From positions 32,001 to 96,000 of IMG/VR virus record IMGVR_UViG_3300005573_001011: 64,000 bases of DNA; one strand, given 5' to 3'. The first letter of the stretch is position 1; the number at the start of each line of letters is the position of its first letter. Origin of the DNA: a virus. Both the position numbers and the translations under genes were made by a program. Below, in pieces: positions 17,830-48,417 of this stretch. The notes beneath the pieces are model-generated. The model had not been told where the DNA came from. It searched no databases and worked only from the letters and a program-made list of their open reading frames with translations.

Positions 17830-17985
17830 TTTTTTACCTCCTTTTTTCTTTTTTTACTTTAGTTGTAAAGAAATATATATAGAACTGTTCTGTTCTATAT
17901 GGCTCTTAACACGAAACTTAAGAGAACAAAAATAAAAGGCTTTTCCTGGCACGAATGGAAAAAATCGTAAGGAGATCGATTAAAA

Positions 17986-19203: not shown

Positions 19204-19221
19204 TTTTAGTGGGGATCTTAC

Positions 19222-21441
19222 ATGTCAATACAAACAACCACTTTGCGGGGGGAATCAGGGTACTCTGGTCTTTCTGGTTATTCTGGTACTGTTGGGCCTT
19301 ACGGTCTTAGTGGTTACTCTGGTATTTCCGGATTCTCTGGAATAAGTGGATTTTCAGGAACTTCAGGCTTAAGCGGGTATTCCGGTGTATCTGGTTATTC
19401 TGGTGTGGAAGGTGCTTACAGTGCTAGTGGGTACAGCGGAATCTCTGGTTACTCAGGAGCGACAGGTTCACAAGGAATCCAAGGACTTTCTGGGTACTCC
19501 GGTATTTCCGGTGCTTCCGGATACTCTGGCATTTCTGGTTATAGTGGCACTTACGGTCCGCCGGGTTCGTCTGGATATTCAGGAAGAAGCGGATATTCGG
19601 GAATCTCTGGATACTCAGGAATGGAAGGTGCTTATAGCGCATCTGGTTATTCCGGTATAAGTGGTTATTCTGGTCTAGAAGGACTTAGTGGATACTCAGG
19701 TATTTCCGGTTACTCTGGTCTTAGTGGTTATAGCGGAATAGAAGGATTATCTGGATACTCAGGAATGGAAGGTGCTTATAGCGCATCTGGTTATTCTGGA
19801 ATTTCTGGTTATTCTGGTCTAGAAGGCATTAGTGGGTACTCAGGATTAGAAGGACTTAGTGGCTATTCAGGAATTTCTGGATACTCAGGTCTAGAAGGAC
19901 TTAGCGGATATTCAGGATTAGAAGGTGCTTATAGCGCATCTGGTTATTCTGGAATTTCTGGTTATTCTGGTCTAGAAGGCATTAGTGGATACTCAGGTCT
20001 AGAAGGACTTAGTGGTTACTCTGGAATAAGTGGATATTCAGGAATTTCTGGTTACAGTGGTATAAGTGGCTACTCTGGCATTGAAGGAGCTCAAGGGTTA
20101 TCTGGCTATTCCGGTATAAGTGGTTATTCTGGTCTAGAAGGACTTAGTGGTTACTCCGGAATAAGCGGATATTCAGGAATTTCTGGTTACAGTGGTATAA
20201 GTGGTTATTCAGGAATTTCTGGATACTCAGGTCTAGAAGGACTTAGTGGTTACTCCGGAATAAGCGGATATTCAGGGACTAGTGGTTATTCTGGAATAAG
20301 CGGATACAGTGGTGCTCGTGGTCCTGATGGGCTTTCTGGGTACTCTGGAAGGAGCGGTTACTCAGGAATTTCTGGTTATTCTGGAATGGTTGGTTTCGAT
20401 GGTCTATCAGGATACTCTGGTGTTTCTGGATACTCTGGAATTGAAGGGTATAGTGGTTATTCAGGAATTTCTGGTTATAGTGGGGAAAGTGGAATAAGCG
20501 GTTACTCTGGAAAAACTGGTGCTTATAGTGCTTCTGGATACTCTGGTATTTCCGGTTACTCTGGTTTAGAAGGATTAAGTGGTTATAGTGGATATTCTGG
20601 TGCCCAAGGATATTCTGGTTATTCTGGTATGGAAGGTGCTTATAGTGCTAGTGGATATTCTGGAATAAGTGGATATTCAGGAATTTCAGGTCTATCTGGC
20701 TATTCTGGAATAAGTGGATACAGTGGTATCTCTGGATACTCTGGTATAAGTGGATACTCTGGAATACAGGGATATGTGGGGCAAGATGGAGCTTCTGGAT
20801 ACTCTGGTATTTCCGGTTACTCTGGTTTAGAAGGAGTCGAAGGTTTAAGTGGTTATAGCGGTATAAGTGGATACTCAGGCTTAGAAGGAGCTCAAGGATT
20901 ATCTGGTTACTCTGGAATTTCTGGTTACTCAGGGATAGAAGGTGCTTATAGTGCTAGTGGTTACTCTGGAATAAGTGGATATTCAGGAATTTCTGGTTAC
21001 AGTGGTATAAGTGGTTATTCAGGAATTTCTGGATACTCAGGTCTAGAAGGACTTAGCGGATACTCTGGGATTTCTGGTTATTCTGGTATAAGCGGCTATT
21101 CTGGATACCAGTCAAACGCACTAGACGGAACTGACTATTCTGCAGGAAATTCTGGGAGTAGTAAGACCATCGACTGGTCAAATGGTGCTACTCAATATAT
21201 GACTTTGACTGCTAACTGTACTATTACGTTGTCGAATGGTTCTAACGGTAAAGTGTACAGGCTATTTATATTGAACGACGAAACTGGTGGGTACACAGTT
21301 ACTTGGTCAACTACTATAAACTGGAGAGGAGGAACTACGCCAACTCAAACTACAACAGCTAGTCATGGAGACTGGTATACATTTGTATACTCCAATGGCA
21401 AATGGTTCGGCGACCAAGCTGCGGACTTTACTAATTCGTAA
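19222..21441 (+). CDS. Collagen-like (SGY/SGI)n fibre protein with C-terminal beta domain
   Basis: About 620 aa of G-x-S triplets; C-terminal 'TIDWSNG...TLTANCT' domain. Confidence 0.8.
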   Translation: MSIQTTTLRGESGYSGLSGYSGTVGPYGLSGYSGISGFSGISGFSGTSGLSGYSGVSGYSGVEGAYSASGYSGISGYSGATGSQGIQGLSGYSGISGASGYSGISGYSGTYGPPGSSGYSGRSGYSGISGYSGMEGAYSASGYSGISGYSGLEGLSGYSGISGYSGLSGYSGIEGLSGYSGMEGAYSASGYSGISGYSGLEGISGYSGLEGLSGYSGISGYSGLEGLSGYSGLEGAYSASGYSGISGYSGLEGISGYSGLEGLSGYSGISGYSGISGYSGISGYSGIEGAQGLSGYSGISGYSGLEGLSGYSGISGYSGISGYSGISGYSGISGYSGLEGLSGYSGISGYSGTSGYSGISGYSGARGPDGLSGYSGRSGYSGISGYSGMVGFDGLSGYSGVSGYSGIEGYSGYSGISGYSGESGISGYSGKTGAYSASGYSGISGYSGLEGLSGYSGYSGAQGYSGYSGMEGAYSASGYSGISGYSGISGLSGYSGISGYSGISGYSGISGYSGIQGYVGQDGASGYSGISGYSGLEGVEGLSGYSGISGYSGLEGAQGLSGYSGISGYSGIEGAYSASGYSGISGYSGISGYSGISGYSGISGYSGLEGLSGYSGISGYSGISGYSGYQSNALDGTDYSAGNSGSSKTIDWSNGATQYMTLTANCTITLSNGSNGKVYRLFILNDETGGYTVTWSTTINWRGGTTPTQTTTASHGDWYTFVYSNGKWFGDQAADFTNS

Positions 21442-21456
21442 AGGACTTCTTACGAT

Positions 21457-22671
21457 ATGGCGGTAGACACATATACCAAAGTTTTGTTGCATTTCGATGG
21501 TGAGGATGGTTCGCATAGTTTTACAGATGAATCTGGAAAGACTTGGAGCACTTATGGCTCTGGGTCTATTCCAGAACTTGATACTGACTACAAGAAATTT
21601 GGTTCTGCTTCAGGAAGGTTTTTTGGTGGGACTAATGGTATTATTTACACACCATGGCATACTGATTTTGAAAATATTGGACCATTTACCATCGATTTTT
21701 GGATAAGATTTAATTCACTTTCAGGGACTCAGAAAATATTTAATGTAGTGCAAAGTAGTACTTCTTTCTTCCAGTTCTATTGGGAGTCAAACACATTTAA
21801 GGTCTGGATTTACGATCATAGTGTCCAATTCTCGACTTCGACTTTGTCACTGTCTACAGGCCAGTGGTATCATGTGGCTTTAACTAGACTTAGTGGCACT
21901 TGGAGAATTTTTGTGGACGGTGAAATGAAAGCTGATTATACTGGCTATTCTGGAACACTGGCGAACTGGAACAGTAATGTCTGTATAGGCGGGCAGTACT
22001 ACAGTGGGCCTACCGAGTGCGTCAATGGCTGGATTGATGAGTTTCGATTTTCGAGGCTTTGTAGGTGGGTTGTGGGTGGATTTCCTTTACCAGATAGAGA
22101 TTACAGTAAGATATTTTACCCTTACGCTTACGCAAATAGAGATGGAGATTTTTTTACTGACTGTACTTACTTCAACAATTCTAATGAATATTTTGATATA
22201 GGTGATTCTTACAATTGTTTTATTGTATTTGATAATGTTGCTATACCAAAGAATGCCACATTAACGGAAGCATATATCGAACTGTGTGCGTGGTCTTATA
22301 GTGCAGATGACACCGTTAAAGTAAAAATACACTTTGCTGATGAAGACGATCCCAGCATACCAACAAGTTGTAGTGATATTAATAGTAGGTCTAGAACCAC
22401 AGGAGTAGAATGGAATAATGTTCCTCACACTGAAGAAAATGGGTGGATTACCACACCAGACATAAAAACAGCGTTGCAACCTGTTGTCAATAGAAGTGGT
22501 TGGTCTAGTGGAAACAAAGTAATGGCTATTATTCTAGACAATGGTGGTGATCCTGGAGCTTACAGAGATATTTGGGAAGCATATTCACTAAGATTTCCTG
22601 AGTTAAGAGTTGATTGGACAGAAGGAGGACCCTCACCCCAGCAAGGTTCGCTATTCACTTTCCAGTGGTAG
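21457..22671 (+). CDS. LamG/concanavalin-A-like lectin-domain virion protein
   Basis: 'LLHFDG', 'FTIDFW', 'WYHVALTR', 'GWIDEFRFS'. Confidence 0.8.
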   Translation: MAVDTYTKVLLHFDGEDGSHSFTDESGKTWSTYGSGSIPELDTDYKKFGSASGRFFGGTNGIIYTPWHTDFENIGPFTIDFWIRFNSLSGTQKIFNVVQSSTSFFQFYWESNTFKVWIYDHSVQFSTSTLSLSTGQWYHVALTRLSGTWRIFVDGEMKADYTGYSGTLANWNSNVCIGGQYYSGPTECVNGWIDEFRFSRLCRWVVGGFPLPDRDYSKIFYPYAYANRDGDFFTDCTYFNNSNEYFDIGDSYNCFIVFDNVAIPKNATLTEAYIELCAWSYSADDTVKVKIHFADEDDPSIPTSCSDINSRSRTTGVEWNNVPHTEENGWITTPDIKTALQPVVNRSGWSSGNKVMAIILDNGGDPGAYRDIWEAYSLRFPELRVDWTEGGPSPQQGSLFTFQW

Positions 22672-22726
22672 TTATAATTTAACTCGTTAATTTTTTTAGA
22701 GAAAAGCCTGTAAGAGAGGTTTACTT

Positions 22727-23107
22727 ATGGAGATTTATGGTGCAGAAGTAAAAGCCACTTTAAAGATGGCTAAAGAAGCGGTTTTCGAACAAGAGTACGA
22801 CAACGGAAACAGTGGTGCAAACAAGACGATTGACTGGAGACATGGAAACAAGCAAAAACTTACTCTCACGGCAAACTGTACGTTAACTTTTACTAATCCG
22901 AGTGGTTGCACTGGTGGTCTTAGTCTCAGAATAGTCCAAGGAGGTGCTGGTAGCTATACTATTGCTTGGCCTAGTAATACTAGATGGCCGGGAGGTCAAG
23001 CCCCAACTTTGACTTCTGGTGTCGGAAGTGTAGATATTGTTGGGTTTTACTTCGATGGTAGTTACTATTATGGTATAGCAAGCACGAACTTCCTACCAGC
23101 AACATGA
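22727..23107 (+). CDS. Stand-alone paralog of the 19222 C-terminal fibre domain
   Basis: GNSGANKTIDWRHG..LTLTANCTLTF vs GNSGSSKTIDWSNG..MTLTANCTITL. Confidence 0.75.
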   Translation: MEIYGAEVKATLKMAKEAVFEQEYDNGNSGANKTIDWRHGNKQKLTLTANCTLTFTNPSGCTGGLSLRIVQGGAGSYTIAWPSNTRWPGGQAPTLTSGVGSVDIVGFYFDGSYYYGIASTNFLPAT

Positions 23108-23108
23108 G

Positions 23109-23702
23109 GTGAGAATAGTTATGGAAACTCAGTATAATCCTGAGTATCTTGAAAGTGTAAGAAAGTGGAAAACACCACAAGACGTACTTAAATATATCGA
23201 AACGTTTTCGTATGCTTCTGAGTTTTTGCCAGATACGAAAAGGAATCTACAACTCTATAAGATCTACCATCCTAAAATGCTTGATTTAGACACTCTATAT
23301 AAAACAAGACGTGGAACATGTACTAACGTTTATTACTTCTTTGTAAAGACAGTAAATACGATTGACCCTTCCTATGCTGCTTTTGCTATAACTATGACGT
23401 GGAGGGGTCCTTGGTCTGGTGTAAATAAGATTTGCTTCTGGTTTGAAGATTTTAAAGTCAAGAGTTTTCGTTGGACACCACAAGACGGTGGCAAACTCGT
23501 TTTAGATGAACCCTTCTCTTCTTTGGAGAGTGCTAGAGATTTCTACATAAGTATGGCAAAAGAGAGCTTAAAACCAAAAGAGATACCTATAAAATACGGT
23601 ATTTCGATTTTAGACATAAGAGTACTACGAGACCTAAAAATACAGCATGCATTAGAAGTTTTTGGTATAGACGATGGATATAGTATATACAGAAAGTTCT
23701 AA
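23109..23702 (+). CDS. Transglutaminase-like (papain-fold) protein, copy 1
   Basis: 'TPQDVLKYI', 'RRGTCT'; shares PFSSLES..DFY with 34357. Confidence 0.5.
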   Translation: MRIVMETQYNPEYLESVRKWKTPQDVLKYIETFSYASEFLPDTKRNLQLYKIYHPKMLDLDTLYKTRRGTCTNVYYFFVKTVNTIDPSYAAFAITMTWRGPWSGVNKICFWFEDFKVKSFRWTPQDGGKLVLDEPFSSLESARDFYISMAKESLKPKEIPIKYGISILDIRVLRDLKIQHALEVFGIDDGYSIYRKF

Positions 23703-24543
23703 GTTTTATGTGGTTACCAATGAAGAAAGAGAAGAGGTAAAAAACTACCTGAAGAACAGTGGCAAGACCGTAGGCAGAGTTGGAATTAGCGGTACTGTTC
23801 ATGAAGGACATAAGTTTATTATAGAGACAGTTAAAAAATTGTACGATGTCGTTATTGTAGACTATGCTTCTTGGGTTCGTTTAGTTTCTTCTCGCTTGTT
23901 TTCCAGTTTCGCACTTCCAAGTGCAGTCACTCCTCCTGATAAGGTAGTGGAGAGCCTTAAAAGGAATAACGTTAGCTTTGACTACTTTTTTTGTACTAAT
24001 ATAACTGAAAAAATTTCGAGAGAAACTAGTTTCTTTAGAAGTTACGAAAGTGAGTTTCGTAACGTGTTAAAAAAGCTTGGATTTACGAGAACTAGCTTAG
24101 TAACACTATTGTGGCAAATTATAGTTGAAGAAGTAACCGGAGACACTGAAGAAGTTGGTCAGTCGTTTCTAGGTCCAAAAAATATTTTGATTGACCTTGT
24201 TTCGAAAGCTGTCGTTGGCCAGAATGCTAAGTATTTTCCAAACTATATTTGGAAATCCTATAGAGATCCGTCTACTTTCACTCTTGAGTCAAGAACATCT
24301 TCATCTATCTTGCTCGGGAAAGTTGCTAGAGAAGCCTATTCCGAACTACTTCGTGGTAAGACTGATGCTAAATATTTTGCTAACCTTGGGTCTGAGTTTT
24401 ATAGACAGGAACCAGGGTTTACTATAATAGACTACAAACGTCTGGAAAAAGTAGACCACGTAACAGATAATTGCGTTCTTGTTTTTTCTGAAGAAAACAA
24501 GTTCGACTACATTTTTATTAAAGACGGAATGATAATTTCCTGA
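23674..24543 (+). CDS. Divergent pantoate-beta-alanine ligase (PanC)-like HxGH enzyme, copy 1
   Basis: 'GKTVGRVGISGTVHEGH', 'GPKN', 'RDPSTFTLESR'. Confidence 0.6.
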   Translation: MDIVYTESSKFYVVTNEEREEVKNYLKNSGKTVGRVGISGTVHEGHKFIIETVKKLYDVVIVDYASWVRLVSSRLFSSFALPSAVTPPDKVVESLKRNNVSFDYFFCTNITEKISRETSFFRSYESEFRNVLKKLGFTRTSLVTLLWQIIVEEVTGDTEEVGQSFLGPKNILIDLVSKAVVGQNAKYFPNYIWKSYRDPSTFTLESRTSSSILLGKVAREAYSELLRGKTDAKYFANLGSEFYRQEPGFTIIDYKRLEKVDHVTDNCVLVFSEENKFDYIFIKDGMIIS

Positions 24544-24559
24544 GTTATGGAGAAACTTC

Positions 24560-25102
24560 ATGCAAAAAACTGGGTGTACTTGCGACTCTACATGCTATAA
24601 TTTTTCCTGCTCTTGTAACACTACTTGCTATGGTTATCAAGCATGTCAGTACGGATGCGATAGTGGTTCGTACGGAGTGTCCTGTCCTTGTAATACTTCT
24701 TGCTATTCTTTTTCGTGTAGCTGTGATGCTAGGTGCCATAATTATGGTTGCACTTGCAATACGCTTTGCCATGGTTACCAAACATGTATGTACGGGTGCG
24801 ATAGTTCTTGCTATAATTATGGCAAAGCATGCGAATGTGATACGACGTGTTATGGATATGTCCCATGTTCGTGCGACAATACGCGTTACGGGTATACATG
24901 CACATGCGATGGCTGGTGCGACTCGTATACTCCTTGCTCATGCTACGGCCCAGGATATACTGTATGCACTTGCTATACGACATGTTATGGCTATTCCCCG
25001 TGCTCGTGCAATAATACGTGTTACGGATTTGTATGTACGTGCAATGCAACTTGTTACCAAGAAAGATTTGGTGCAGATGCTTTATCGTTCGAACTGTTCT
25101 AG
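24560..25102 (+). CDS. Cys/Tyr-rich repeat protein (39 Cys; about 14 CxCxxxCY-type units)
   Basis: GGAG RBS 7 nt upstream; 10 exact CxCxxxC units plus 4 variants. Confidence 0.8.
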   Translation: MQKTGCTCDSTCYNFSCSCNTTCYGYQACQYGCDSGSYGVSCPCNTSCYSFSCSCDARCHNYGCTCNTLCHGYQTCMYGCDSSCYNYGKACECDTTCYGYVPCSCDNTRYGYTCTCDGWCDSYTPCSCYGPGYTVCTCYTTCYGYSPCSCNNTCYGFVCTCNATCYQERFGADALSFELF

Positions 25103-25225
25103 CGGAAGGCAGATCTTAAAATGGGTCGAAGTACTTGCCAGTAATGCAGAAGTTCTAACGGAAGATCTTTGAAAATTTTAGTAGACGAATACACGTTGGA
25201 ATCTTAGTGATAAGGATTTATGGGC

Positions 25226-25465
25226 AAAAAAAAAGAGAAGCTTCTTTTAGCTTCTCTCTCTTGTCTCTACTCACGACGAACCCACAACACATTGTTAGAG
25301 TCGATCGTGAACTTCCTATCGCTAGTCTCGATGATAACCTGCCCAGGTAGACTGAGCATTCTTACGACGTTCTTAAATCTTCTCGTAACTCCCGTCACAT
25401 ACTCAATTATTACGTTCATTTTCTGCCTCCTTTATTTTATTTTTCTAAATAGAAATATATATAGC
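25226..25465 (-). repeat. Mini-gene cassette copy A (promoter-RBS-ORF-terminator), inverted relative to copy B
   Basis: Highly similar to the reverse complement of 30721..30961. Confidence 0.9.
25267..25419 (-). CDS. 50-aa hypothetical protein, copy A
   Basis: MNVIIEYVTGVTRRFKNVVRMLSLPGQVIIETSDRKFTIDSNNVLWVRRE; GGAGGCAG RBS. Confidence 0.8.
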   Translation of the reverse strand: MNVIIEYVTGVTRRFKNVVRMLSLPGQVIIETSDRKFTIDSNNVLWVRRE

Positions 25466-25537
25466 AAACTCATTTTTTATAAGAAGCTAAAATATTGCAA
25501 GTGAACAAATTGAAAAGAAGACGAAAAGGAGTGAAGT

Positions 25538-28500
25538 ATGAGAATCACTTGGACGGCGTTTTTGCACCCTTTTACTGCTATGGGTGTAATTGCTGTAAAC
25601 GTGGTTAGAGAACTTTCTAAGCTTGGTATAGACGTAGGAATAAATGTTTTAAACCCTTCTGAGTACTCTCCAACAGATTATCCAACCGAGATCCAAAAAG
25701 CGGTAGAAAAAGGCTATAGAGAAGATTCTATTAACATCTTCTTTTCTTACCCAGACATCTATGGCAACGTTAGATGCAGAGTTAACGTTGGATTTACGGG
25801 TGCAGACTCTACAGAATGGTATCAAACAGGAGCTGACAAGCCTCCAGCACAGATCTGTAACGAACTAATGGATTACATGTTAACTCCATCTGAGTACAGT
25901 AAACGAATAATGCAAAACTGTGGTGTAGCTGTTCCAATAATAGTTTTCCCACATGGTGTAGATACTGATATATTTAAACCAGCAAATAAAACTTCGTCTG
26001 GGTTTAGATTTCTTTACATTGGTGAGTTATCTAGAAGAAAAGGAACGTTCGACTTAATTTCATGTTTCGATAAATTTAGCTTCGTTTATCCAGAAGCTAC
26101 TCTTGTGCTTAGGGCTAATACTCATATGAAGTATTACGATGGCCAAGAGATAGAACGACAATGCCAGCAAAATAAGCAGATTACAGTAGTATACGAGAAC
26201 AGAGGCCAAGAAGACATTGCTAAATATATGCAGAATTCTGATGTTCTTGTCCATCCAACTAGAGCAGATTGGTTTGGAATGCCTCCACTTGAAGCTTTAG
26301 CTTGCGGTATTCCAGTTATTGCTACAGCTTCTAACGGATACTACGAATTCCTAAAAGACTTTATAGTTCCAGTTAATTTTAGTTTACGAGAAGTTGGAAA
26401 CGAGCACCCTTACTTAAAAGGTAAGTGGAATGTTATAGATAGAGAAGATTTACTTGCGAAAATGGTTTTTGCGTACAATAATATAGAAAAGTTGACACAA
26501 AAGAGCAGGGAAGTATCTGAACGAATTAGAGAAGAATTTAGTTGGAAGAAAGTAGTAGAGAAGTACTTAGTACCATTTTTAGAAGAAGTTCACGAAAAGC
26601 ATTTTAAGCGAGAATTAGTAAAAGTAGCGAAACAAGACAACTACAGAATTACAGTTGGGATCCCGACTAAAGACCGTCTTCTAGAACTCTCACTTCTCCT
26701 CATGTCTCTGCTAAACCAAACTTATAAAGATTTCGAAGTAATTATTGTTAACGACTGGTTCGGAAACATCTATGGCAATACTACTCTAAATTCGATTATT
26801 AGAATGCTCAACGAAAATGGCAATACTGTTACGATTATCGAAGGTGAGAGAAGGGGCCCCCATATCGCTGGACAGAAGATTTTAGATAATGCTAAAACTG
26901 AGCTAATCTTAAGACTTGACGACGATGTAGTTCTGCAGCCAAACTTTATAGAAGAGCTAGTTAACGCATACAAGGAACTAACAAGTAAAGGAAAGAATGT
27001 TGCTGCTATTGGACCGATTTATCTTAATCCACATGAAGAGCTCCGCAAACAAGTCTTGCCTCAAAACATGACAAAGGAAGAGATGGAAAACTACGGAAAA
27101 GTCGTATGGGATGGAAGAAACTTATTTTTAACTGGGTGGATACAGATTAACATGCATCCTCGCAACGAACTAGTTAAAGTAGAGCACTTAAACTCTGGCT
27201 TCATGTATAGAAAGAGTGTTGGCAAACAGATCGGAGGGTTGAGAAAAGACTTGTCAATAGTCGGTCATAGGGAAGAAAGTGATTTCTCTTGGAGAATGCA
27301 TAAAGCTGGCTACGAACTGTTCGTTTGCCCAACTGCTATCGCTTATCATTTTCATCCGATGATCGGTGGAATAAGAGAGACAATGGGCAAAGCAATTGAG
27401 AAAGAGAACTGGGATAGAGACGAAACCCTCTTCTTGCAAACTATAGCAGGTGAACTTGGGGCTAAAGATCAGGTTGCGGTTGTGGTTCTCACTCATGGAT
27501 CTGACCACATGAATTTGCGGATGCTCCTTGGAGATATACTTAAATTTACTAGTCACTCTCACGAACTTATTGTTGTCAACAATGACTCAACGCCAGAATC
27601 TCATAGTGACATAGTACGTATAGAACAAGACGTAAAGTCTAGAATTACGAACTCGAAATTCTTTAATTTGCAGAAAGAAGTGTCGGTAAGCGAAGCTAGA
27701 AATTTCGGTGCAAAACAAAGAAGTGAGAAAAGCAAGTACATTTGCTTTATAGATGACGATGCCAGAATTCTTGGAAGATTTAGCCAAGAAGAAGATTGGC
27801 TAGACTTTTTGTGCAGAAAATTCAACGAACAACCCGATATAGCAGCAGTAGCACCAATTTACACGTGGTTCGACGACTTGAAATGCGACTGCGTTTCGGT
27901 GGCTTGCATGCTTACTTCAGTAAAAGTCTGGGAAGTTGTAGGAGGATTCGATCCAGTCTTCGGGAACTTGAAAAAGGGGACATGGGGATATGAAGACGTA
28001 GACTGGAGTTATAGGGCACAGATACTTGGTTACAAACTAAAGTCAGTAGAGACGAACGCTTTTCCTTTTTACCATGGTGACACCACATTTAAACCTAAGT
28101 CTGAGTTAATCCAAGCTGGACTAATTAAAGCTCGAGAACTGTTGCTAGCTAAATGGTCAAAACATGATACTGAGAAATTCTGCAGGACAACTTATCCTCT
28201 TACTCGAGAGCAGTTAGAACTTAGAGGAACGAAACTGAACTTAGGGTGCTACTTTATGCATTTGGATAACTTTATAAATGTAGACGTAAATCCAGACTGC
28301 GGTGCGGATCTTGTCCTCGATATAAGAGACTTAAAGAAGAACTTCCAGCCAAATTCAGTGTCTCTTGTTTTAGCATCTCACGTTATAGAGCACTTCACTA
28401 AAGAAGAGGCTAAACAAATTCTACGCGACATTTACGACATCTTGCTACCTGGAGGTTTCTTAATTGTAGAAGTTCCAAACTGTAAAAACTTAGATGAACG

Positions 28501-28705: not shown

Positions 28706-28850
28706 GGAATAATTTTAGTTGGTGAAGAGGCCTTAGTGATTAACAGACAAGATTTATGGACTATGAGAACTTATGCAGGAGACTGTTAAACCAAAGAAAG
28801 CGCAGTGGTGCGATTAGAAGAAGACCTGGGTCAAGGGAGGCATTAGACAA

Positions 28851-29633: not shown

Positions 29634-29642
29634 GAGACAAGA

Positions 29643-30707: not shown

Positions 30708-30720
30708 AAAAAACTTGCAA

Positions 30721-30961: not shown

Positions 30962-30997
30962 ATCTTTTTTAAGAAAGAACGGGAGGAGACAGTATAA

Positions 30998-33538: not shown

Positions 33539-34357
33539 ATGGCTATAAAAACTAAGTACACTGACGGAGCCATTCCCGACGTATCTATACAAAGCTTAGT
33601 AGACTCTTATAAATTTACTGCAGCGGAGCTCCCGTTCGAAGAATTTTGCAAAATGATAACAGTTCCTAAGTATGTAGAAACACTAGCACCCGACTTTATA
33701 GACTTAGGTCCGTTTACAGCGACTAAACTAACTGACAAAACGGAAGATGAAGAAATAAGAAGCTTTAAATCTGAGTGGGAAAATGGTGTAGCTGAAACTG
33801 TTAAGAAAACGTTCGATATAGATTTCCACTTTTATTGCGAGCCAGATGGTGATCTTGAAAGTTATTTTGAAGACCTTTACATGGTTGCATACGTTATTAA
33901 GCTAAAAAGTAGCAACAAGATGACTTCAATGTTGGGTCTAATAAGAAAGTCGAGAAATCTGTCTTTTTGCTCCGCTAATGGAAGACTAGAATGGTCTACT
34001 AAGTCGTTTATTGGCAGCAGGCTTTTTTATGCTTATGTCTTACTGCACCCTAGAGAGTTCGGAGTAACTTCGGTGCAAAGCACTAAAACTCAAAAAGTAC
34101 ATAATCTTATTGTTAATTTTATAAAGAAAGACTACGACGCTAGTAGTGAGTCGATAAAGCAACTTTTTGACGAACTAAGTCCTACCTTTGTGGAAGAAGA
34201 CTTTAAGGAACTGTATAAAAACTTGTGGTACAATATCGAACAGATCAGATCTGAAAAGCTGATAGTATGGAGATGGGACCGAGATACAATGTTATCTAAG
34301 TTCCAAAATTTCGAAGCAGTTGTCGAAATGGCTAATTCCTTGTGGAGAGAGCTTTAA
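33539..34357 (+). CDS. Hypothetical protein, possible GNAT-like fold
   Basis: GGAGG RBS; weak 'FIGSRLFYAYVLLHPREFGVTSV' resemblance only. Confidence 0.45.
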   Translation: MAIKTKYTDGAIPDVSIQSLVDSYKFTAAELPFEEFCKMITVPKYVETLAPDFIDLGPFTATKLTDKTEDEEIRSFKSEWENGVAETVKKTFDIDFHFYCEPDGDLESYFEDLYMVAYVIKLKSSNKMTSMLGLIRKSRNLSFCSANGRLEWSTKSFIGSRLFYAYVLLHPREFGVTSVQSTKTQKVHNLIVNFIKKDYDASSESIKQLFDELSPTFVEEDFKELYKNLWYNIEQIRSEKLIVWRWDRDTMLSKFQNFEAVVEMANSLWREL

Positions 34358-34881
34358 TGAATATTGAAGAGCAAAAGTTTCTCTACAACCAGTGGATCAC
34401 TAGTTGTAAGAGCTTTCACGATGTAGATTCTTGGTTTAAACAAGGGTTCAGGTTTTCTGCCGAGCGTGAAGAAGAGTGCTGGAGAGAAATAAGAAGTGGC
34501 ACGTTGCCTCCGCGGGTCCTTAAGCCGTACGAAGTGTTTTCACTAAAGTCTGGGTGCTGTCTCGACATCACTTGGTTTACTGGAAAGTCTTTAAGCCTCA
34601 TTAACAGTTCTTACAATATAAGGTACAATACAATCGTTACTATTAGATTCAAGCTGATCCATACTCTTGTCACTTTTACATATAATTCTAAGCTCTATAC
34701 TATTGACTATTCTTTTCCGGAGACGATACCTGCTTTTAAGGCAATGTGTGGTCTCTGGGGGCCATTTGATAGCTTAGATTCTATCGTAAAAGATTTTTAC
34801 TTAAAAATGAATCCCAAGTATAAAAATGTGGACTACTATCACGAAGGGTGGCCTGACCTGCGTGATTATGTAGCTTCGTAA
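34357..34881 (+). CDS. Transglutaminase-like cysteine peptidase, copy 2
   Basis: SGCCLD, IHTLV and TIDY form a putative Cys-His-Asp triad; TAATG coupling to the upstream gene. Confidence 0.65.
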   Translation: MNIEEQKFLYNQWITSCKSFHDVDSWFKQGFRFSAEREEECWREIRSGTLPPRVLKPYEVFSLKSGCCLDITWFTGKSLSLINSSYNIRYNTIVTIRFKLIHTLVTFTYNSKLYTIDYSFPETIPAFKAMCGLWGPFDSLDSIVKDFYLKMNPKYKNVDYYHEGWPDLRDYVAS

Positions 34882-34892
34882 GAGGAAAACGA

Positions 34893-35777
34893 ATGGAAAT
34901 CTTAGCAAACTATGACGAGCTAAAAAAAGTTGTCAGTGGACTAAAGAGCCAAGGAAAAGTAATAGGTCGCTTCGGAACTTGCGGTGGTATTCACCAAGGT
35001 CATTTAGCTGGCATAGACTTTGTTCGAGACAAAGCAGACGTTGTCATTGTGACGTTTAACGACTGGATTAATCCAGCTATCTACTCGATGTCTGGACTCC
35101 CAGACTTCATGTTTCCACCATATACTAGACAAAGACCAGACGATATAGAGAAACTTGAACAAACTAGTAAAGTAGACTACCTTATTAAAGTTCCTTTTTC
35201 AGAAAAGATTTGGAACGAAGTAACTGAAGCTCGGTCAGTTCTAGTGAAGGAAGACGAATTCTTTAGAAAGCACAACTTGCTTACTAATCCAAATGCACAG
35301 TGGTTTGGCTTAATAGCTGCTATAGCAGCACAGTGGTATTGTCCGGAACACGACCTTGCAGACATAGTAGGATACGGAGCGAAAGACGCTGTTTATGTCT
35401 TGCTGGCTGAAGCAATTCTCAGGAAGTACGACAAAGGAGTGTTAGGAAAAGTTATAGAGTTTTACCCAGTTGTAAGAAGTAAAGACTTGTTTCCACTTTC
35501 TTCTTCTGAGCTACTTAGTACTGATGTAGAAAAGGTTACTAAAGAGAAACAACTCTTCGAATATTTTAAGCACTGCTATCTAGAGTTGAGGAAGACAGGG
35601 AGGGTTCCCGAATATAATTTGGAAGAAAAATGGAGACTTTATCTGATTGAGAAAGATACTCTGCAATTTGTAGAGGTTTTAGAGTCTGGTAAACCTTACT
35701 TTTTTGTTTGCTTAAAACCGTACAAAGTCGGAAATCGTACTTTAGTTTTTAGAGATTGTTTTGATTTTGTTGCTTAA
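34893..35777 (+). CDS. Divergent PanC-like HxGH adenylating enzyme, copy 2
   Basis: 'GKVIGRFGTCGGIHQGH...ADVVIVT', 'YGAKD' and 'PVVRSKDLFPLSSS' parallel the PanC motifs. Confidence 0.7.
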   Translation: MEILANYDELKKVVSGLKSQGKVIGRFGTCGGIHQGHLAGIDFVRDKADVVIVTFNDWINPAIYSMSGLPDFMFPPYTRQRPDDIEKLEQTSKVDYLIKVPFSEKIWNEVTEARSVLVKEDEFFRKHNLLTNPNAQWFGLIAAIAAQWYCPEHDLADIVGYGAKDAVYVLLAEAILRKYDKGVLGKVIEFYPVVRSKDLFPLSSSELLSTDVEKVTKEKQLFEYFKHCYLELRKTGRVPEYNLEEKWRLYLIEKDTLQFVEVLESGKPYFFVCLKPYKVGNRTLVFRDCFDFVA

Positions 35778-45191: not shown

Positions 45192-45380
45192 ATGACAATG
45201 ACGACGAAAATTAAAGACAGAATCGAGGAGTTAAGGAAAGAGAATGATGCAGACAACCAGAAGCTAATTGAGTTAGAACAGAGGAAGAGTTTACTAATCC
45301 AGGAAATTTTGGTAAGGAATGGAAGAATTTTGGAACTAGAAAAACTATTGGATGAGACAGACCGAAAAGAAGCGGACTAA
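45192..45380 (+). CDS. Small coiled-coil protein
   Basis: AAGGAGG RBS. Confidence 0.75.
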   Translation: MTMTTKIKDRIEELRKENDADNQKLIELEQRKSLLIQEILVRNGRILELEKLLDETDRKEAD

Positions 45381-45554: not shown

Positions 45555-46028
45555 ATGGGAATAAAAGTTCTTAGGGAAATATTAGACGAAGAGATAGCTG
45601 ATTTCGTCAATAAATTAAACGAGTTTTCGTTTCTACAAACAAGGTCATCTTGCTCAGGATACGGAGACCCAGAAACAGAAAACTCTAGGTCAGATGGAGT
45701 TAATAGAGTGTGGCGAGGACGACCATATATTTCGTTTTGGGTGCTCGAACCAGAAGCGTACCAGTTTGTCGAACATGTTATGAGAGAACTAGTTTTCGAC
45801 CACCGCGCTGCAGATGCTCCAGAAAAGCAGCCAGCATATGCAGAAAAACTAAGCAAGTTTGAAATACAAGACGATGGAAAGCAGCTTATCCACGCTACAT
45901 TAGAGTGGAGAAACGACAAAATGGTAGTTAGTATCTATATAGATGACAGAGACCGAAACCCAGAAACAATAATGAAGATATGGAAACTATTTGAGAGTGC
46001 TGTAGACTCTTACAAGACAAAAGGGTGA
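45555..46028 (+). CDS. Tyw3-like N-terminal fold hypothetical protein
   Basis: 'LDEEIADFVNKLN...TRSSCSG'. Confidence 0.55.
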   Translation: MGIKVLREILDEEIADFVNKLNEFSFLQTRSSCSGYGDPETENSRSDGVNRVWRGRPYISFWVLEPEAYQFVEHVMRELVFDHRAADAPEKQPAYAEKLSKFEIQDDGKQLIHATLEWRNDKMVVSIYIDDRDRNPETIMKIWKLFESAVDSYKTKG

Positions 46029-46072: not shown

Positions 46073-46966
46073 ATGAAATTTGTTTTTATCTTAACTTTGC
46101 TTGTCTTGCTTTTGGCGCCAGGTTACACTGCATCTTATGACAAATTTCACTCTCAGTTTCCAGGAGTTACTGATGAAAGAGATTTTGTCAATTTCGAAAA
46201 CTGGATTGTAGAAGTTAAGACAGTCGGTTATGCGTTGGGTATTCTTCCTGAGAAGTTTAGAGGGAAAGAGAAGAGTTGTCTGAGCATCGGAACGTTTGAG
46301 TTACAAGCGAGTGGTTTCGTTGTGCAAGGCGGGTTTATAGTGGCAGCGAACCATGTAGTCTCACCTCACTACGTTCTTATAAAGACAGATTACCACGTAG
46401 TTTGGAAAGTCCCAGTTACTAGTGTTCTTTCGAAAACTATAATTATTAATGAGTATATACCAGCTACTGTTATTTGGCAAGACGAAAAAGCGGATATAGC
46501 TGTCCTTCTCCCAGTGTACGACCGTAATATGACTCTAGAAGGAGTGTCCTTTAAGATGGAGAGTGCGGCCGTTGAGGAGGGTGATGCAGTTTCAATAGTA
46601 GTTAGAGAAGTGTTCGAAAATGGGGAGCGTGGCTCTTGGCACGAGATCAGACAAGGACGTGTTATATCGCCATATCCTCTTTCTGTATTTACTCCTGAGT
46701 TTGGAGACTTACACCTCTTAACTCAAGCTGAGTTAGAGCCAACGGACATAACTCATTCTACTACTCTCTACCCTGGAGATAGTGGCTCGCCATTAATTGC
46801 TTACAAAGAAGGCGAACCCGTAATAGTTGGTGTTGTAACTAAAATGATAGCACTTCGTGTAACTCTAACTGATGTTGTAGTCTTTTACTATGCAACAAGA
46901 ATAGACAAGGCAAAAAGATTTATTGAAGCATATATAGATTTACAGAGAAGGGAGAAAATAAATTGA
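46073..46966 (+). CDS. Secreted trypsin-like serine protease
   Basis: Signal peptide; AANHV, DIAVL and GDSGSP triad motifs. Confidence 0.85.
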   Translation: MKFVFILTLLVLLLAPGYTASYDKFHSQFPGVTDERDFVNFENWIVEVKTVGYALGILPEKFRGKEKSCLSIGTFELQASGFVVQGGFIVAANHVVSPHYVLIKTDYHVVWKVPVTSVLSKTIIINEYIPATVIWQDEKADIAVLLPVYDRNMTLEGVSFKMESAAVEEGDAVSIVVREVFENGERGSWHEIRQGRVISPYPLSVFTPEFGDLHLLTQAELEPTDITHSTTLYPGDSGSPLIAYKEGEPVIVGVVTKMIALRVTLTDVVVFYYATRIDKAKRFIEAYIDLQRREKIN

Positions 46967-48417
46967 AGTTAGATTTTCCAATTAGGTCCTGTACTATTGA
47001 CTTAACTGAAAGATGCAACCTACGATGTAAGTACTGCTTTACTTATGGAGTGGGCAAGCGAGATTTAACTTTCGAACAAGGAAAAAAGACTATCGATTGG
47101 TTATTCCGCGATGAAGTAAGTCAAGCCGACGACATTAGTATAGATTGGTGGGGGGGTGAGCCTTTCTTAAAGTTTGACTTGATGAGACGCTTGAGTGACT
47201 ATGTTTTAGAGAAAGCACATAAGACTAGGAAAAGAGTAATGATGGGTGGGACATCTAACGTTACTCTGTGGACACCAAAAGTAATCGATTGGATGAATAA
47301 CCATAACATCTATTTCCTAATGTCTATAGACGGCGTTGGCGCAGCACAAGATACATTTAGACCGATGGCAGGGAAGAAAAAGAGCAGTTGGAACGTAATA
47401 AAGAGAAGATTGCCGTATATCGTTAGTAAGATTCCGTTTATAAAGTCTAGATCATCCCCTGCACCAGCAACGATACATCTTTTTGCAGATTCAGTAAAAG
47501 AGCTCTATAATACTTACAAGCTAAAAGACCAAACGTTTTCTCCAGTCTTCGAGATGGAGTGGACTGACGATAAACTCAAGATAGCGAAAGAGCAGTTATT
47601 TGCACTAGCTGATTTCATGATTGAGTTAGCGAAGAAGAGTGAAAGACTAGCAGTTAAGCATTTTGACGATGGAGCAGCAAAGCTTGAAACGGGATCAATA
47701 AAACCAGAATGGCCATGTGGAGCTGGGAGGTTCTACGTTGGTATCGGTGTCGATGGATACATTTATCCATGTCATCGGTTTAATAAGTATGATCGGCCTG
47801 TAAGTGAGAAGTACTGTATTGGTAGTATAGACGAAGGAATTACTAGACCAGACTTAAGAGAACCGTTCTTAAAATTCTTAGACTTGGCACCTCCAGAGAA
47901 GTGCAAAAACTGTAAGTGGTACGGTAGAACGTGCAATATCGGCTGCTATGCTATTAACTTTGACTTAACTGGAAGCATCTTCACTCCTGGAGAAAATCAT
48001 TGCAGATGGATGGAAGTGCAAGGTGAAGCTATTGAATACTTTTACAAGAAAATTAAAGAAAATAATCTACCGCTTCCAAAACCGGCTTTTCCACAGCCAC
48101 AAATAGGAGGAATGAGAATGGCAGGGTCATGTATATGCAACAATATGTGTTACTTAGAGGGAACTGAGAGAGAAGTAAAGACAGTAGACTGGTCTACAGG
48201 ATTCGCTTGTCAGTGCTATAACACGAACTACGCTGGTGGTTTAGCAGACCAAGCAAGGCAATTAACTCAAGAAGAGATGCTAAAGATTTCACCTCGTCCA
48301 GCTAGTCAGTATGAGCTATTACAGAAGTTGGTAAACAGACTAGACGAAATGCAAGAGACTAACAAGCAGCTTCTTGATGTGATTACGAAGCTCGCAAGTT
48401 CGTTAGCAGAAAAGTAA
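46963..48417 (+). CDS. Radical SAM/SPASM maturase with Cys-motif C-terminal extension
   Basis: CNLRCKYC, GGEP, SIDG; SPASM CGAG...YPCHRF...CKNC.....CNIGC...C; tail CICNNMCY and CQCYNTNY. Confidence 0.9.
   Translation: MKLDFPIRSCTIDLTERCNLRCKYCFTYGVGKRDLTFEQGKKTIDWLFRDEVSQADDISIDWWGGEPFLKFDLMRRLSDYVLEKAHKTRKRVMMGGTSNVTLWTPKVIDWMNNHNIYFLMSIDGVGAAQDTFRPMAGKKKSSWNVIKRRLPYIVSKIPFIKSRSSPAPATIHLFADSVKELYNTYKLKDQTFSPVFEMEWTDDKLKIAKEQLFALADFMIELAKKSERLAVKHFDDGAAKLETGSIKPEWPCGAGRFYVGIGVDGYIYPCHRFNKYDRPVSEKYCIGSIDEGITRPDLREPFLKFLDLAPPEKCKNCKWYGRTCNIGCYAINFDLTGSIFTPGENHCRWMEVQGEAIEYFYKKIKENNLPLPKPAFPQPQIGGMRMAGSCICNNMCYLEGTEREVKTVDWSTGFACQCYNTNYAGGLADQARQLTQEEMLKISPRPASQYELLQKLVNRLDEMQETNKQLLDVITKLASSLAEK

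What the first reader, a model, noticed from the sequence alone, without database searches (positions are those of the whole stretch)
24560..25102. 39-Cys CxCxxxCY repeat protein at the end of the tail-fibre operon
Seen: 180 aa with about 14 tandem units (CTCDSTCY, CSCNTTCY, CPCNTSCY, CECDTTCY, CTCNATCY...), Tyr/Gly linkers, almost no leader and a short Cys-free C-terminal follower (QERFGADALSFELF). The units are diverged at DNA level while the Cys spacing is kept, which suggests protein-level selection. Inference: a multi-core RiPP precursor, or a crosslinked or metal-loaded virion appendage matured by the rSAM enzyme and/or the adjacent peptidase-ligase pair.
Basis: partly seen in the sequence, partly recalled or inferred. 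Interest (0 to 1): 0.85.

Follow-up and report, generated by a model that had tools for sequence, protein, structure and literature searches.

The report
Radical-SAM-linked cysteine-repeat module of phage fibres
A small phage protein made almost entirely of repeated cysteine-tyrosine units belongs to a rare family that nearly always sits beside a cross-linking enzyme in phage tail-fibre gene clusters, which suggests that some phages chemically staple part of their fibres.

Summary
ORF 24560-25102 (+) encodes 180 aa with 39 Cys and 23 Tyr: 12 CxC-type units plus 2 variant units, a 5-residue N-terminus and a 14-residue Cys-free tail. The units are old at DNA level.

It belongs to a rare, so far phage-only family. 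Only 22 credible clusters were found among 1.84 billion representatives. The consensus unit is C-[ST]-C-[ND]-x-T-C-[YH]-G-Y-[ST]-A. Arrays stand alone at the end of tail-fibre modules, or are fused to or inserted into larger phage proteins, one of them with a C1q-like head.

In 37 of 44 non-redundant loci a radical SAM/SPASM gene lies in the same locus, at a median gap of 132 bp. The main type ("rSAM-A") is closest to PapB/CteB thioether-forming maturases. It lacks their N-terminal extension and carries a conserved substrate-like CxCxNxCY...CxCYNTNY tail.

The window's rSAM-A (46963-48417) is an ortholog lying 22 kb downstream.

Best reading: a leaderless repeat module of the fibre apparatus, cross-linked through its cysteines by rSAM-A. 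The chemistry is inferred, not shown.

This is a new variant of a known kind; the nearest precedent is CrpA/CrpC (2026). Other first-stage notes of this scan cover this same stretch; none is on other DNA.

The parts
24560..25102 (+). Cys-repeat protein, 180 aa. Residues 6-166 hold 12 CxC-type and 2 variant units. Residues 167-180 form a Cys-free C-terminal tail that ends in ...F-E-L-F.
   Evidence: Family membership.
25058..25099 (+). C-terminal tail (14 residues). Its type is conserved in the window's clade: tails end in F[ED]LF, ATLF, VDVF or IDIF.
   Evidence: window, L070, L047, L017, two L056 proteins. A role as a docking or ligation handle is inferred.
46963..48417 (+). rSAM-A, a radical SAM/SPASM enzyme of 484 aa and the presumed maturase of the Cys-repeat protein. 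It lies 22 kb downstream.
   Evidence: Pfam Radical_SAM, Fer4_12 and SPASM. NCBIfam best match is the PapB family, 208 bits against a cut-off of 340. PDB best match is 5wgg/5why, E 1.7e-24. Orthologs lie next to Cys-repeat genes.
48130..48237 (+). Substrate-like tail motif of rSAM-A (residues 390-425): one CxCxNxCY unit and one CxCYNTNY unit.
   Evidence: C390, N394, C416, C418, Y423 and G425 are invariant in 10 rSAM-A sequences of 31-51% identity.
45555..46028 (+). Conserved 157-aa companion with an RSSCSGY motif. TYW3-like, but only weakly.
   Evidence: Homologs lie beside Cys-repeat genes in L056, L047, L017 and L070. Pfam TYW3 E 7.6e-4, below cut-off. PDB 2drv E 0.0048.
45192..45380 (+). 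Small Cys-free protein that also lies upstream of rSAM-A in L001 (58% identity over 48 aa).
   Evidence: No Pfam family.
46073..46966 (+). Trypsin-like peptidase directly upstream of rSAM-A. It is not conserved in the related loci.
   Evidence: Pfam Trypsin_2 E 1.1e-8. No homolog in any fetched locus.
23109..23702 (+). Transglutaminase-like protein (197 aa), copy 1.
   Evidence: No Pfam hit of its own. It matches the C-terminal DUF553 domain of the L047 rSAM::transglutaminase fusion, E 1.3e-7.
23674..24543 (+). PanC-like (HxGH nucleotidyltransferase-type) protein (289 aa), copy 1, directly upstream of the Cys-repeat gene.
   Evidence: Pfam Pantoate_ligase E 7.2e-4, below cut-off. Homologs in L047 (E 2.5e-42) and L017. 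Weak PDB matches to pantothenate synthetases over residues 13-63 only.
19222..23107 (+). Fibre genes upstream in the same operon: collagen-like tail fibre (19222-21441), Laminin_G_3 protein (21457-22671) and a small tail-fibre protein (22727-23107).
33539..35777 (+). Second set: a 272-aa protein, a DUF553 transglutaminase-like protein and a PanC-like protein, directly upstream of the 3049-aa collagen-like fibre (35792-44941).
   Evidence: The 272-aa protein matches L047 1598-2353.

Best explanation
The 180-aa protein is a stand-alone copy of a phage-specific, leaderless Cys/Tyr repeat module. Its 11-12-residue unit is C-[ST]-C-[ND]-x-T-C-[YH]-G-Y-[ST]-A, and it belongs to the tail-fibre apparatus.

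After translation, its cysteines are cross-linked inside the infected cell by the phage's own radical SAM/SPASM enzyme, rSAM-A (46963-48417). The most likely products are thioether (ranthionine-type) bridges from Cys sulfur to a nearby side-chain carbon. Candidate acceptors are the conserved residues three positions after each Cys: N/D at unit position 4, T at position 6, and Y/Q/E/D at position 10. The result would be a redox-insensitive, protease-resistant rod or knot.

The enzyme has no leader-binding N-terminal domain. I infer that it finds its substrate through its own conserved substrate-like tail, or by direct recognition of the repeated unit.

The short C-terminal tail of the 180-aa protein probably docks it to, or lets it be ligated to, another fibre component.

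Shown: the gene, the family, the phage tail-fibre context, the gene linkage to rSAM-A/B, the enzyme's family resemblance and its tail motif.

Inferred: that the enzyme acts on this protein, the thioether chemistry, the acceptor residues, the virion location and the role of the tail.
For: (1) Linkage. Of 44 non-redundant loci with arrays of at least 4 units, 37 hold an rSAM-A or rSAM-B gene, at a median gap of 132 bp. In 29 of them rSAM-A lies directly downstream on the same strand. None of the 23 pattern-matched loci without an array has such a gene.

(2) Reciprocal test. Of 15 viral loci anchored on strong rSAM-A relatives, 11 hold a Cys-repeat ORF on the same strand within 6 kb.

(3) Orthology. 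The window's enzyme matches the rSAM-A of L001 (E 5e-74), L003 (E 6e-42) and L041/L017 (49% identity).

(4) Enzyme family. NCBIfam best match is the PapB-family ranthipeptide maturase (E 1.6e-61, model positions 2-329 of 330). Next come the nif11, CXXX-repeat, QhpD and SCIFF maturases. The best PDB match is 5wgg/5why (E 1.7e-24); the Crp paper names PDB 5WHY as CteB. The SPASM domain passes its cut-off (TIGR04085, 42.5 bits against 27).

(5) Tail motif. The enzyme's C-terminal extension carries units that look like the substrate, and they are invariant across 10 diverse orthologs.

(6) Structural context. The window gene closes a collagen-fibre / Laminin_G / small-tail-fibre operon. L002 and L003, two phages whose gene sets otherwise show almost no similarity, place it at the end of their tail-fibre modules. 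In L001, L005 and P0006/19/22/24 the array is inserted into a protein whose array-less paralogs lie next to it. The globular part of that protein models as a C1q/TNF jelly roll, TM 0.80 to C1QL3 normalised to the target, and matches BFVD C1q-domain phage proteins and tail fibres.

(7) Precedent. CrpC, a SPASM radical SAM enzyme, installs ranthionine cross-links on the Cys-rich repeat protein CrpA, which carries C-X-X-Q/D motifs (PMC13692751: abstract and sections 8, 12 and 14 read). NxxcB makes a beta-thioether from Cys to the Asn of an NxxC motif and tolerates Asp (PMC9389541, passages).
Against: No chemistry was measured.

In this window the enzyme is 22 kb from the substrate gene. Three relatives that share window genes or gene order (L036, L070, L024) also lack an adjacent rSAM in the DNA available.

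The NCBIfam score is below the PapB equivalog cut-off (208 against 340), so the reaction type is not assured. Alpha-thioether, C-C or C-O cross-links, or another Cys oxidation, remain possible.

The +3 acceptor pattern is not discriminating. N/D/T/Y/Q/E fill 78% of +3 positions but also 69% of +1 positions.

The AlphaFold2 model of the protein is of low confidence (mean pLDDT 52.4), so there is no structural support.

Virion location rests on gene order and on fusions. PHROG annotation of the fused partners is sparse: of 10 scanned, 1 hit a 'host range and adsorption' family, 4 hit only families of unknown function and 5 hit nothing.

A second enzyme type (rSAM-B, with a ~245-aa partner) replaces or accompanies rSAM-A in some loci and is absent from this genome record, so the pathway is not uniform.
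Confidence: 0.55

Rival explanations
1. rSAM-A does modify the repeat protein, but by a chemistry other than side-chain thioethers. Examples are sactionine (S to C-alpha), Tyr-centred C-C or C-O cyclophanes, or Cys-to-formylglycine-type oxidation.
For: The score is below the PapB equivalog cut-off. Cyclophane-forming maturases (YhhB, GrrM, FxsB, XyeB), sactisynthases and anaerobic sulfatase maturase also match at E 1e-10 to 1e-25. Tyr/His at unit position 8 (about 99%) and Tyr at position 10 (89%) are as conserved as the Cys residues.
Against: The five best NCBIfam matches (PapB, nif11, CXXX-repeat, QhpD, SCIFF) include the thioether formers PapB, QhpD and SCIFF, and the best PDB match is CteB. 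Three near-invariant Cys per unit are most simply the reactive groups.
Confidence: 0.17
2. The protein is an unmodified structural or metal-binding repeat: metallothionein-like, a disulfide ladder, or axial metal sites in a fibre. The rSAM next to it serves another substrate.
For: CxC motifs and 22% Cys resemble metal-binding proteins. The precedent protein CrpA is itself suspected of binding metal (PMC13692751, sections 8 and 14). The enzyme tail's four invariant Cys could form a metal or cluster site rather than a substrate mimic.
Against: The gene linkage is very tight (37 of 44 loci; 11 of 15 in the reciprocal test). No Pfam, NCBIfam or PHROG family, metallothioneins included, matches. The protein has 13% Tyr; that this is unusual for metallothioneins is recalled knowledge. 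Metal binding after partial cross-linking is not excluded and would be compatible with the main reading.
Confidence: 0.13
3. It is a multi-core RiPP precursor. After modification the array is cut into many small cyclic peptides, which are released at lysis as bioactive or signalling molecules.
For: Tandem near-identical cores are typical of multi-core precursors. A trypsin-like peptidase lies directly upstream of rSAM-A in the window.
Against: There is no leader and no RRE-like extension on the enzyme; matches to SCIFF, nif11 and QhpD models start at model positions 75-96, and the 5wgg match starts at chain residue 96. The peptidase is not conserved in any related locus. No exporter was seen among the 30 window ORFs scanned. 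The linkers ([ST]-A or a single residue) carry no conserved cleavage motif. In about 20 clusters the array is part of a 340-1200-aa protein.
Confidence: 0.08

Closest known systems
CrpA/CrpC of Methanococcus voltae (PMC13692751, 2026; abstract and sections 8, 12 and 14 read)
   Same: A Cys-rich tandem-repeat protein, not a short peptide, is encoded with a SPASM radical SAM enzyme. Ranthionine cross-links were shown there. CrpA has C-X-X-Q/D motifs; here the motif is C-x-x-[N/D].
   Different: CrpC belongs to TIGR04463; rSAM-A scores 44 bits against a cut-off of 525. CrpC has a predicted RRE and CrpA has a 47-residue leader-like N-terminus; here there is neither. The Crp unit is 17 residues, here 11-12. 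Crp is archaeal and cellular, this family is phage tail-fibre-associated. The paper's main text does not mention phages; its supplementary data set of related clusters could not be read.
PapA/PapB (freyrasin) ranthipeptide system (NF047865; PMC12373016 passages)
   Same: This is the best NCBIfam match of rSAM-A, covering the whole model. Its substrate holds repeated Cys-to-acidic-residue thioethers, with the acceptor C-terminal to the donor Cys.
   Different: The score is below the equivalog cut-off (208 against 340). According to the paper, PapB recognition is dominated by leader-RRE binding; here there is no leader. The acceptor would mostly be Asn rather than Asp. The array has up to about 46 units, compared with six motifs in freyrasin (that number is recalled).
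CteA/CteB (SCIFF) thioether maturase, PDB 5wgg/5why
   Same: It is the best solved-structure match (E 1.7e-24) and is a radical SAM enzyme with a SPASM domain and two auxiliary clusters.
   Different: The match starts at residue 96 of the chain, so the N-terminal domain of CteB has no counterpart here. The SCIFF substrate is a ~45-residue peptide with six Cys (recalled).
NxxcA/NxxcB of streptococci (PMC9389541 passages)
   Same: Positions 4-7 of the unit read [N/D]-x-x-C, the NxxC motif in which NxxcB links Cys to the beta-carbon of Asn and tolerates Asp.
   Different: NxxcB does not appear among the listed family matches. It makes a quorum-regulated small RiPP with a leader. The donor-acceptor order is the reverse of PapB's and CrpC's.
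QhpC/QhpD (quinohemoprotein amine dehydrogenase gamma subunit)
   Same: rSAM-A matches the QhpD model at E 5.9e-41. That system installs thioethers in a protein subunit that stays part of a larger assembly.
   Different: The score is far below cut-off (141 against 453). QhpC is not repetitive and is an enzyme subunit.
Metal-stabilised or Cys-laddered fibrous repeats (T4 gp37 HxH iron sites; Tenebrio antifreeze 12-residue Cys beta-helix), both recalled from memory
   Same: They have short periodic units with metal-ligand or Cys residues at fixed spacing in an elongated fold. gp37 is a phage fibre.
   Different: No sequence or fold match was obtained here; the model was too uncertain to search. 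Neither is linked to a radical SAM enzyme.

Membership tests
PapB-family radical SAM/SPASM ranthipeptide maturase (NF047865), for the enzyme rSAM-A | Score at or above the curated equivalog cut-off (340 bits) | tested here: not met
   208.4 bits, E 1.6e-61, model positions 2-329 of 330. It is a related family, not an equivalog.
Radical SAM/SPASM peptide or protein maturases (general) | CxxxCxxC radical SAM motif plus a SPASM domain with its cysteine set | tested here: met
   C18, C22 and C25 are invariant. Pfam Radical_SAM 34.1 bits (cut-off 29.5) and SPASM 22.4 bits (21.5). TIGR04085 42.5 bits (cut-off 27). C252, C270, C314, C324, C328 and C347 are invariant and C317 nearly so.
Canonical RiPP system | Leader (or follower) peptide on the substrate and an RRE domain or protein that binds it | tested here: not met
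   Five residues precede the first Cys. Stand-alone relatives start with 2-5 residues before the first unit. The enzyme aligns from its residue 7 to position 96 of the SCIFF model and chain residue 96 of 5wgg. No PqqD-like family appears among the 30 window ORFs scanned. A follower role for the C-terminal tail is untested.
Canonical RiPP system | Precursor gene adjacent to the maturase | tested here: inconclusive
   Not adjacent in the window (22 kb apart). Adjacent in most relatives: 29 of 44 groups have rSAM-A directly downstream.
Ranthipeptide / thioether-cross-linked protein | Cys sulfur to side-chain carbon thioether bonds in the mature product | not testable with these tools
   Needs mass spectrometry or NMR of the modified protein.
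Crp-type Cys-rich protein system (TIGR04463) | The enzyme is a member of TIGR04463 | tested here: not met
   44.3 bits against a cut-off of 525.
CXXX-repeat peptide system (TIGR04115 / TIGR04119) | Enzyme score above cut-off; target with Cys at every fourth residue | tested here: not met
   142 bits against 350, and 45 against 150. Cys spacings here are 2, 4 and 5-6.
Metallothionein | A Pfam metallothionein family match; Cys-rich with few or no aromatic residues (the second feature is recalled) | tested here: not met
   0 Pfam families at E <= 0.01. 23 Tyr, 6 Phe, 2 His and 1 Trp in 180 residues.
Phage tail-fibre-associated protein | Encoded within a tail-fibre module; physically present in the virion | tested here: inconclusive
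   Gene position is met in the window, L002 and L003, and fusion to a C1q-like head was found. Virion presence is not testable here.

The most novel reading that the evidence does not exclude
Some phages build part of their host-recognition fibres from a leaderless polymer in which every 11-12-residue unit is stapled by up to three short Cys-to-(i+3) thioether rings.

The rings are made by an RRE-less PapB/CteB-like radical SAM enzyme that recognises the polymer through a built-in copy of the unit in its own tail (homotypic docking instead of leader recognition).

In the window's clade the stand-alone rod is then fixed to the fibre through its conserved ...F[E/D]LF carboxy-terminus by the neighbouring PanC-like adenylating ligase and transglutaminase-like protein.

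This would be the first radical-SAM-cross-linked virion component and a new, leader-free way of recognising substrates for RiPP-type enzymes.
Probability: 0.2. Interest if true: 0.92.

Novelty: new variant of a known kind. Interest (0 to 1): 0.8.

Why it matters
Radical SAM thioether chemistry is known mainly from small secreted peptides. Its use on whole proteins was shown only recently (CrpA/CrpC, 2026) and without a known function.

Here the same logic appears in phages, tied to tail-fibre genes and to receptor-binding-type (C1q-like) heads. That gives the chemistry a concrete biological setting: a redox-proof, protease-proof fibre element.

It also offers a natural leaderless substrate, with a simple 11-12-residue unit, that could be exploited for enzymatic stapling of proteins. 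The enzyme's conserved substrate-like tail is a testable new recognition principle.

For phage annotation, it names a hitherto unannotated gene pair found in at least 44 non-redundant metagenomic loci.

Tried and rejected
- **Public phage genomes.** megablast of 17000-32000 and tblastn of the protein found no match.
- **The search for related loci.** With the single protein in viral contigs, 11 pattern matches were found and none was confirmed. I replaced this search with a degenerate DNA pattern.
- **Family libraries.** Pfam, PHROGs and NCBIfam gave 0 families for the protein. The ESM Atlas gave no usable hit.
- **AlphaFold2 of the 180-aa protein.** With a 15-row alignment, mean pLDDT was 52.4 and only short strands appeared. 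This was too uncertain for a fold search, so none was run on it.
- **Complex prediction.** Three copies of the protein, testing a trimeric fibre: no verdict, score 0.00 against a mark of 0.42, controls not run. I draw nothing from it.
- **The look-up of sequencing runs.** No RNA holder is listed, so nothing follows about expression. No reads were laid.
- **rSAM-B in this genome.** The genome record has no match. A second radical SAM gene, outside the window near the record's end, is unrelated to rSAM-A and rSAM-B.
- **Genome contigs.** The pattern scan gave 7 matches, none with an array. No cellular or prophage copy was found at this pattern's sensitivity.
- **Spurious arrays.** L004, L007, L010, L011, L033, L050 and L067 had out-of-frame or low-complexity Cys/Trp strings, judged by eye. 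L010 and L011 were excluded before the count; the others fell below its 4-unit threshold. P0012 and P0025 are unrelated repeats and were dropped.
- **Internal start in the rSAM-A tail.** GGAGG at 48106-48110 and an in-frame ATG at 48118 exist, but the Met is not conserved in orthologs. I do not adopt a separate 99-aa product.
- **Trypsin-like peptidase as part of the system.** It has no homolog in any related locus.
- **Literature.** Seven answered searches found no paper on a phage Cys-repeat protein with a radical SAM partner. Subscription journals and supplements, including Supplemental Data set 1 of PMC13692751, were not visible.
Full report
**The observation**

ORF 24560-25102 (+) encodes 180 residues. 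A GGAG lies 7 nt before its ATG, and only 16 nt separate it from the stop of the upstream gene.

It has 39 Cys, 23 Tyr and 22 Thr. There are ten exact CxCxxxC matches and twelve segments that begin with CxC. Five residues precede the first Cys, and a 14-residue Cys-free tail follows the last unit.

Tandem Repeats Finder sees no DNA repeat. The twelve unit cores are 61% identical in DNA on average. Where residues are identical, the third codon base agrees in only 130 of 289 cases. The periodicity is therefore ancient and maintained at protein level.

A 96%-identical relative (L036) differs by 9 synonymous and 6 non-synonymous codons.

**Setting in the window**

The window lies in a 119,080-bp IMG/VR virus record that CheckV rates 38% complete. 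The record has a T4-type major capsid protein (Pfam Gp23, E 4.4e-33).

The gene closes an operon made of:
- a collagen-like tail fibre (19222-21441);
- a Laminin_G_3 protein (21457-22671);
- a small tail-fibre protein (22727-23107; phrog_9017);
- a 197-aa protein (23109-23702);
- a PanC-like protein (23674-24543).

Glycosyltransferase genes follow downstream.

A diverged second copy of the transglutaminase-like and PanC-like pair lies at 34342-35777, directly before a 3049-aa collagen-like fibre.

The only radical SAM gene in the window is at 46963-48417. It is not adjacent to the repeat gene; it lies 22 kb downstream.

**The family**

The protein matches no Pfam, PHROG or NCBIfam family and nothing in 50,697 phage records.

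A word-indexed search of 5.8 billion proteins gave 5 relatives. A full phmmer scan of 1.84 billion cluster representatives gave 24 hits at E <= 0.001. Two of these are unrelated repeats.

A degenerate DNA pattern for one unit gave the following:
- viral contigs: 8 stretches, 4 true;
- metagenome contigs: 82 stretches;
- 185,579 species genomes: 7 stretches, none true.

From 951 units in 79 distinct proteins the consensus is C-[ST]-C-[ND]-x-T-C-[YH]-G-Y-[ST]-A for the 12-mer (454 units), with an 11-mer variant (377 units).

Anchored on [YH]G[YHF] rather than on Cys, unit positions 1, 3 and 7 are Cys in 99%, 99% and 91% of 391 units. Position 4 is N/D in 84%.

**Architectures**

Stand-alone forms begin with 2-5 residues before the first unit.

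Other members carry the array at the C-terminus of 340-1200-aa proteins or inside them.

In L001 a 736-aa protein with 87 Cys has two array-less paralogs directly upstream.

Its shorter relative P0019 modelled with mean pLDDT 53, but with pLDDT 70-89 in the globular parts. Foldseek matched those parts to C1q/TNF jelly rolls (C1QL3, TM 0.80 normalised to the target). It also matched C1q-domain phage proteins and tail fibres in BFVD. In that type the array is therefore an insertion in a C1q-like head domain.

In L002 the stand-alone gene lies between a collagen-like tail fibre and a tail-assembly-chaperone gene. In L003 it follows baseplate, tail-collar-fibre and tail-fibre-assembly genes.

**Linkage to radical SAM enzymes**

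Two enzyme families recur.

rSAM-A comprises the window's 46963-48417, L001 5051-6313 (E 5e-74) and L003 1-699 (E 6e-42).

rSAM-B comprises L001 7829-8833, L002 1154-2155 and L005 2526-3545. These are about 50% identical to each other and are always accompanied by a ~245-aa partner.

I merged near-identical loci. That turned 64 loci with arrays of at least 4 units into 44 groups. Of these, 37 hold an rSAM-A or rSAM-B gene in the same locus. The median gap is 132 bp, and in 29 groups rSAM-A lies directly downstream on the same strand.

The seven negatives are as follows:
- six have under 1.4 kb of downstream sequence, among them L036 and L070;
- L024 has 4.8 kb of downstream sequence and no rSAM;
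- L036, L070 and L024 all share genes or gene order with the window.

None of the 23 pattern-matched loci without an array has such a gene.

In the reciprocal test, 19 viral loci were fetched with an rSAM-A alignment. Of the 15 strong relatives, 11 hold a Cys-repeat ORF on the same strand within 6 kb.

**What the enzyme is**

rSAM-A has the CxxxCxxC motif and a SPASM domain.

Its best NCBIfam match is the PapB-family ranthipeptide maturase (E 1.6e-61, 208 bits, whole model). This is below the 340-bit equivalog cut-off. The next matches are the nif11, CXXX-repeat, QhpD and SCIFF maturases.

The best solved structure is 5wgg/5why (E 1.7e-24). PMC13692751 names PDB 5WHY as CteB.

Matches to the SCIFF, nif11 and QhpD models begin at model positions 75-96, and the match to the 5wgg chain begins at residue 96. 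The N-terminal domain of those enzymes is therefore missing here; that their RRE lies in this domain is recalled knowledge.

Instead the enzyme has a C-terminal extension with one CxCxNxCY unit and one CxCYNTNY unit:
- by a simple pattern this is present in 17 of 21 rSAM-A sequences;
- three more carry a CMCNNATYY variant, and one is cut by its contig end;
- C390, N394, C416, C418, Y423 and G425 are invariant in ten sequences of 31-51% identity.

An earlier first-stage note (e1-6141390) had seen this motif in the window's enzyme. Its conservation across the family is new here.

**Accessory genes**

A 157-aa protein (window 45555-46028, motif RSSCSGY, weak TYW3 resemblance) lies beside Cys-repeat genes in L056, L047, L017 and L070.

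The PanC-like protein has homologs in L047 and L017.

In L047 the genes lie in one row: small tail-fibre protein, rSAM-B, a 251-aa protein (similar to window 33539-34357), the PanC-like protein, a Radical_SAM::DUF553 transglutaminase-like fusion, the TYW3-like protein and the Cys-repeat protein.

In this clade the Cys-repeat proteins end in similar hydrophobic-acidic-hydrophobic-Phe carboxy-termini: FELF, FDLF, ATLF, VDVF and IDIF. Other clades end in ...SWIGWE or ...YEYPWT.

The sample is small, so any role for these tails is only a hypothesis.

**How it most likely works**

Shown: the linkage, the enzyme's family resemblance, the phage fibre context, and the absence of a leader or RRE.

Inferred: rSAM-A cross-links the cysteines of the array.

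Thioethers are the most likely product for three reasons. The nearest enzyme families make them. PMC13692751 showed that a SPASM radical SAM enzyme installs ranthionine links on a Cys-rich repeat protein with C-X-X-Q/D motifs. And each Cys in the unit is followed at +3 by a conserved possible acceptor: N/D at position 4, T at position 6 and Y/Q/E/D at position 10.

Positions 4-7 also read as the NxxC motif of NxxcB (PMC9389541). The +3 pattern is weak evidence on its own, because +1 positions are similarly enriched.

**Rivals and limits**

The rivals are a different radical chemistry, an unmodified metal or disulfide repeat, and a multi-core RiPP. They are set out in their own section.

The monomer model was uninformative. 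The trimer job gave no verdict.

**Novelty**

Seven answered literature searches found no description of a phage Cys-repeat protein paired with a radical SAM enzyme. One cyanophage paper lists a 'radical SAM superfamily maturase' among 'antibiotic synthesis genes' without naming a substrate (PMC12801897, passages).

The general principle, a SPASM enzyme acting on a Cys-rich repeat protein, is known since 2026. New here are the phage fibre setting, the leaderless unit, the RRE-less enzyme with a substrate-like tail, and the accessory genes.

I rate it a new variant of a known kind, with interest 0.8.

Noticed in passing
L020 332-1471 (+); L025 1084-2121 (-), also L060: Some relatives have in-frame TAG codons in both the Cys-repeat gene (3 in L020, including the terminal one) and the rSAM-A gene (4 in L025). 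This suggests phages that read TAG as a residue.
   Followed up: partly
L077 1-2382 (-); L063 3-2123 (-): Two rSAM-A genes are interrupted by an intein with a LAGLIDADG homing-endonuclease domain. In L077 it sits just before the conserved CHRF motif of the SPASM region (Pfam LAGLIDADG_3; also Intein_splicing in L077).
   Followed up: partly
L116 9379-10254 (+); L117 9672-10385 (+): Two viral loci with a more distant radical SAM enzyme (25% identity to rSAM-A) carry, about 1.5 kb downstream, a different Cys-repeat protein built of roughly six-residue C-x-C-N-Y-C-type units (59 Cys in 292 aa in L116). This is a second phage rSAM plus Cys-repeat type.
   Followed up: no
window 33539-35777 and 35792-44941: A second, diverged transglutaminase-like and PanC-like pair, preceded by a 272-aa protein that also occurs in the L047 cassette, lies directly upstream of a 3049-aa collagen-like fibre that carries a Peptidase_S74 chaperone domain near its C-terminus.
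   Followed up: partly
The Met is not conserved in orthologs.
   Followed up: partly
G000 contig 1, about 117.1-118.1 kb (outside the window; L100 919-1908, minus strand): A second radical SAM gene (330-aa frame) in the same virus record. It is unrelated to rSAM-A and rSAM-B by BLASTP.
   Followed up: partly
L029 3-5651 (+): An 1883-aa open frame with 100 Cys carries a variant unit (C-x-x-C-D-N-T-C-Y type). No rSAM was found in the 6.4-kb locus.
   Followed up: no
window 25538-28705: A 1055-aa fusion of GT4, two GT2 domains and a methyltransferase domain follows the Cys-repeat gene. L036 and L070 keep the same downstream neighbour.
   Followed up: no
window 25234-25257: A terminator-like hairpin (9 pairs) lies about 130 nt after the Cys-repeat gene. 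It is consistent with the end of the fibre operon, but the count of such sites is not above the shuffles.
   Followed up: no
window 23000-26000: Three public DNA runs, from three studies, hold at least half of the sampled words of this stretch. They are labelled hot-spring (2) and sediment (1) metagenomes, and one may be the source sample.
   Followed up: no
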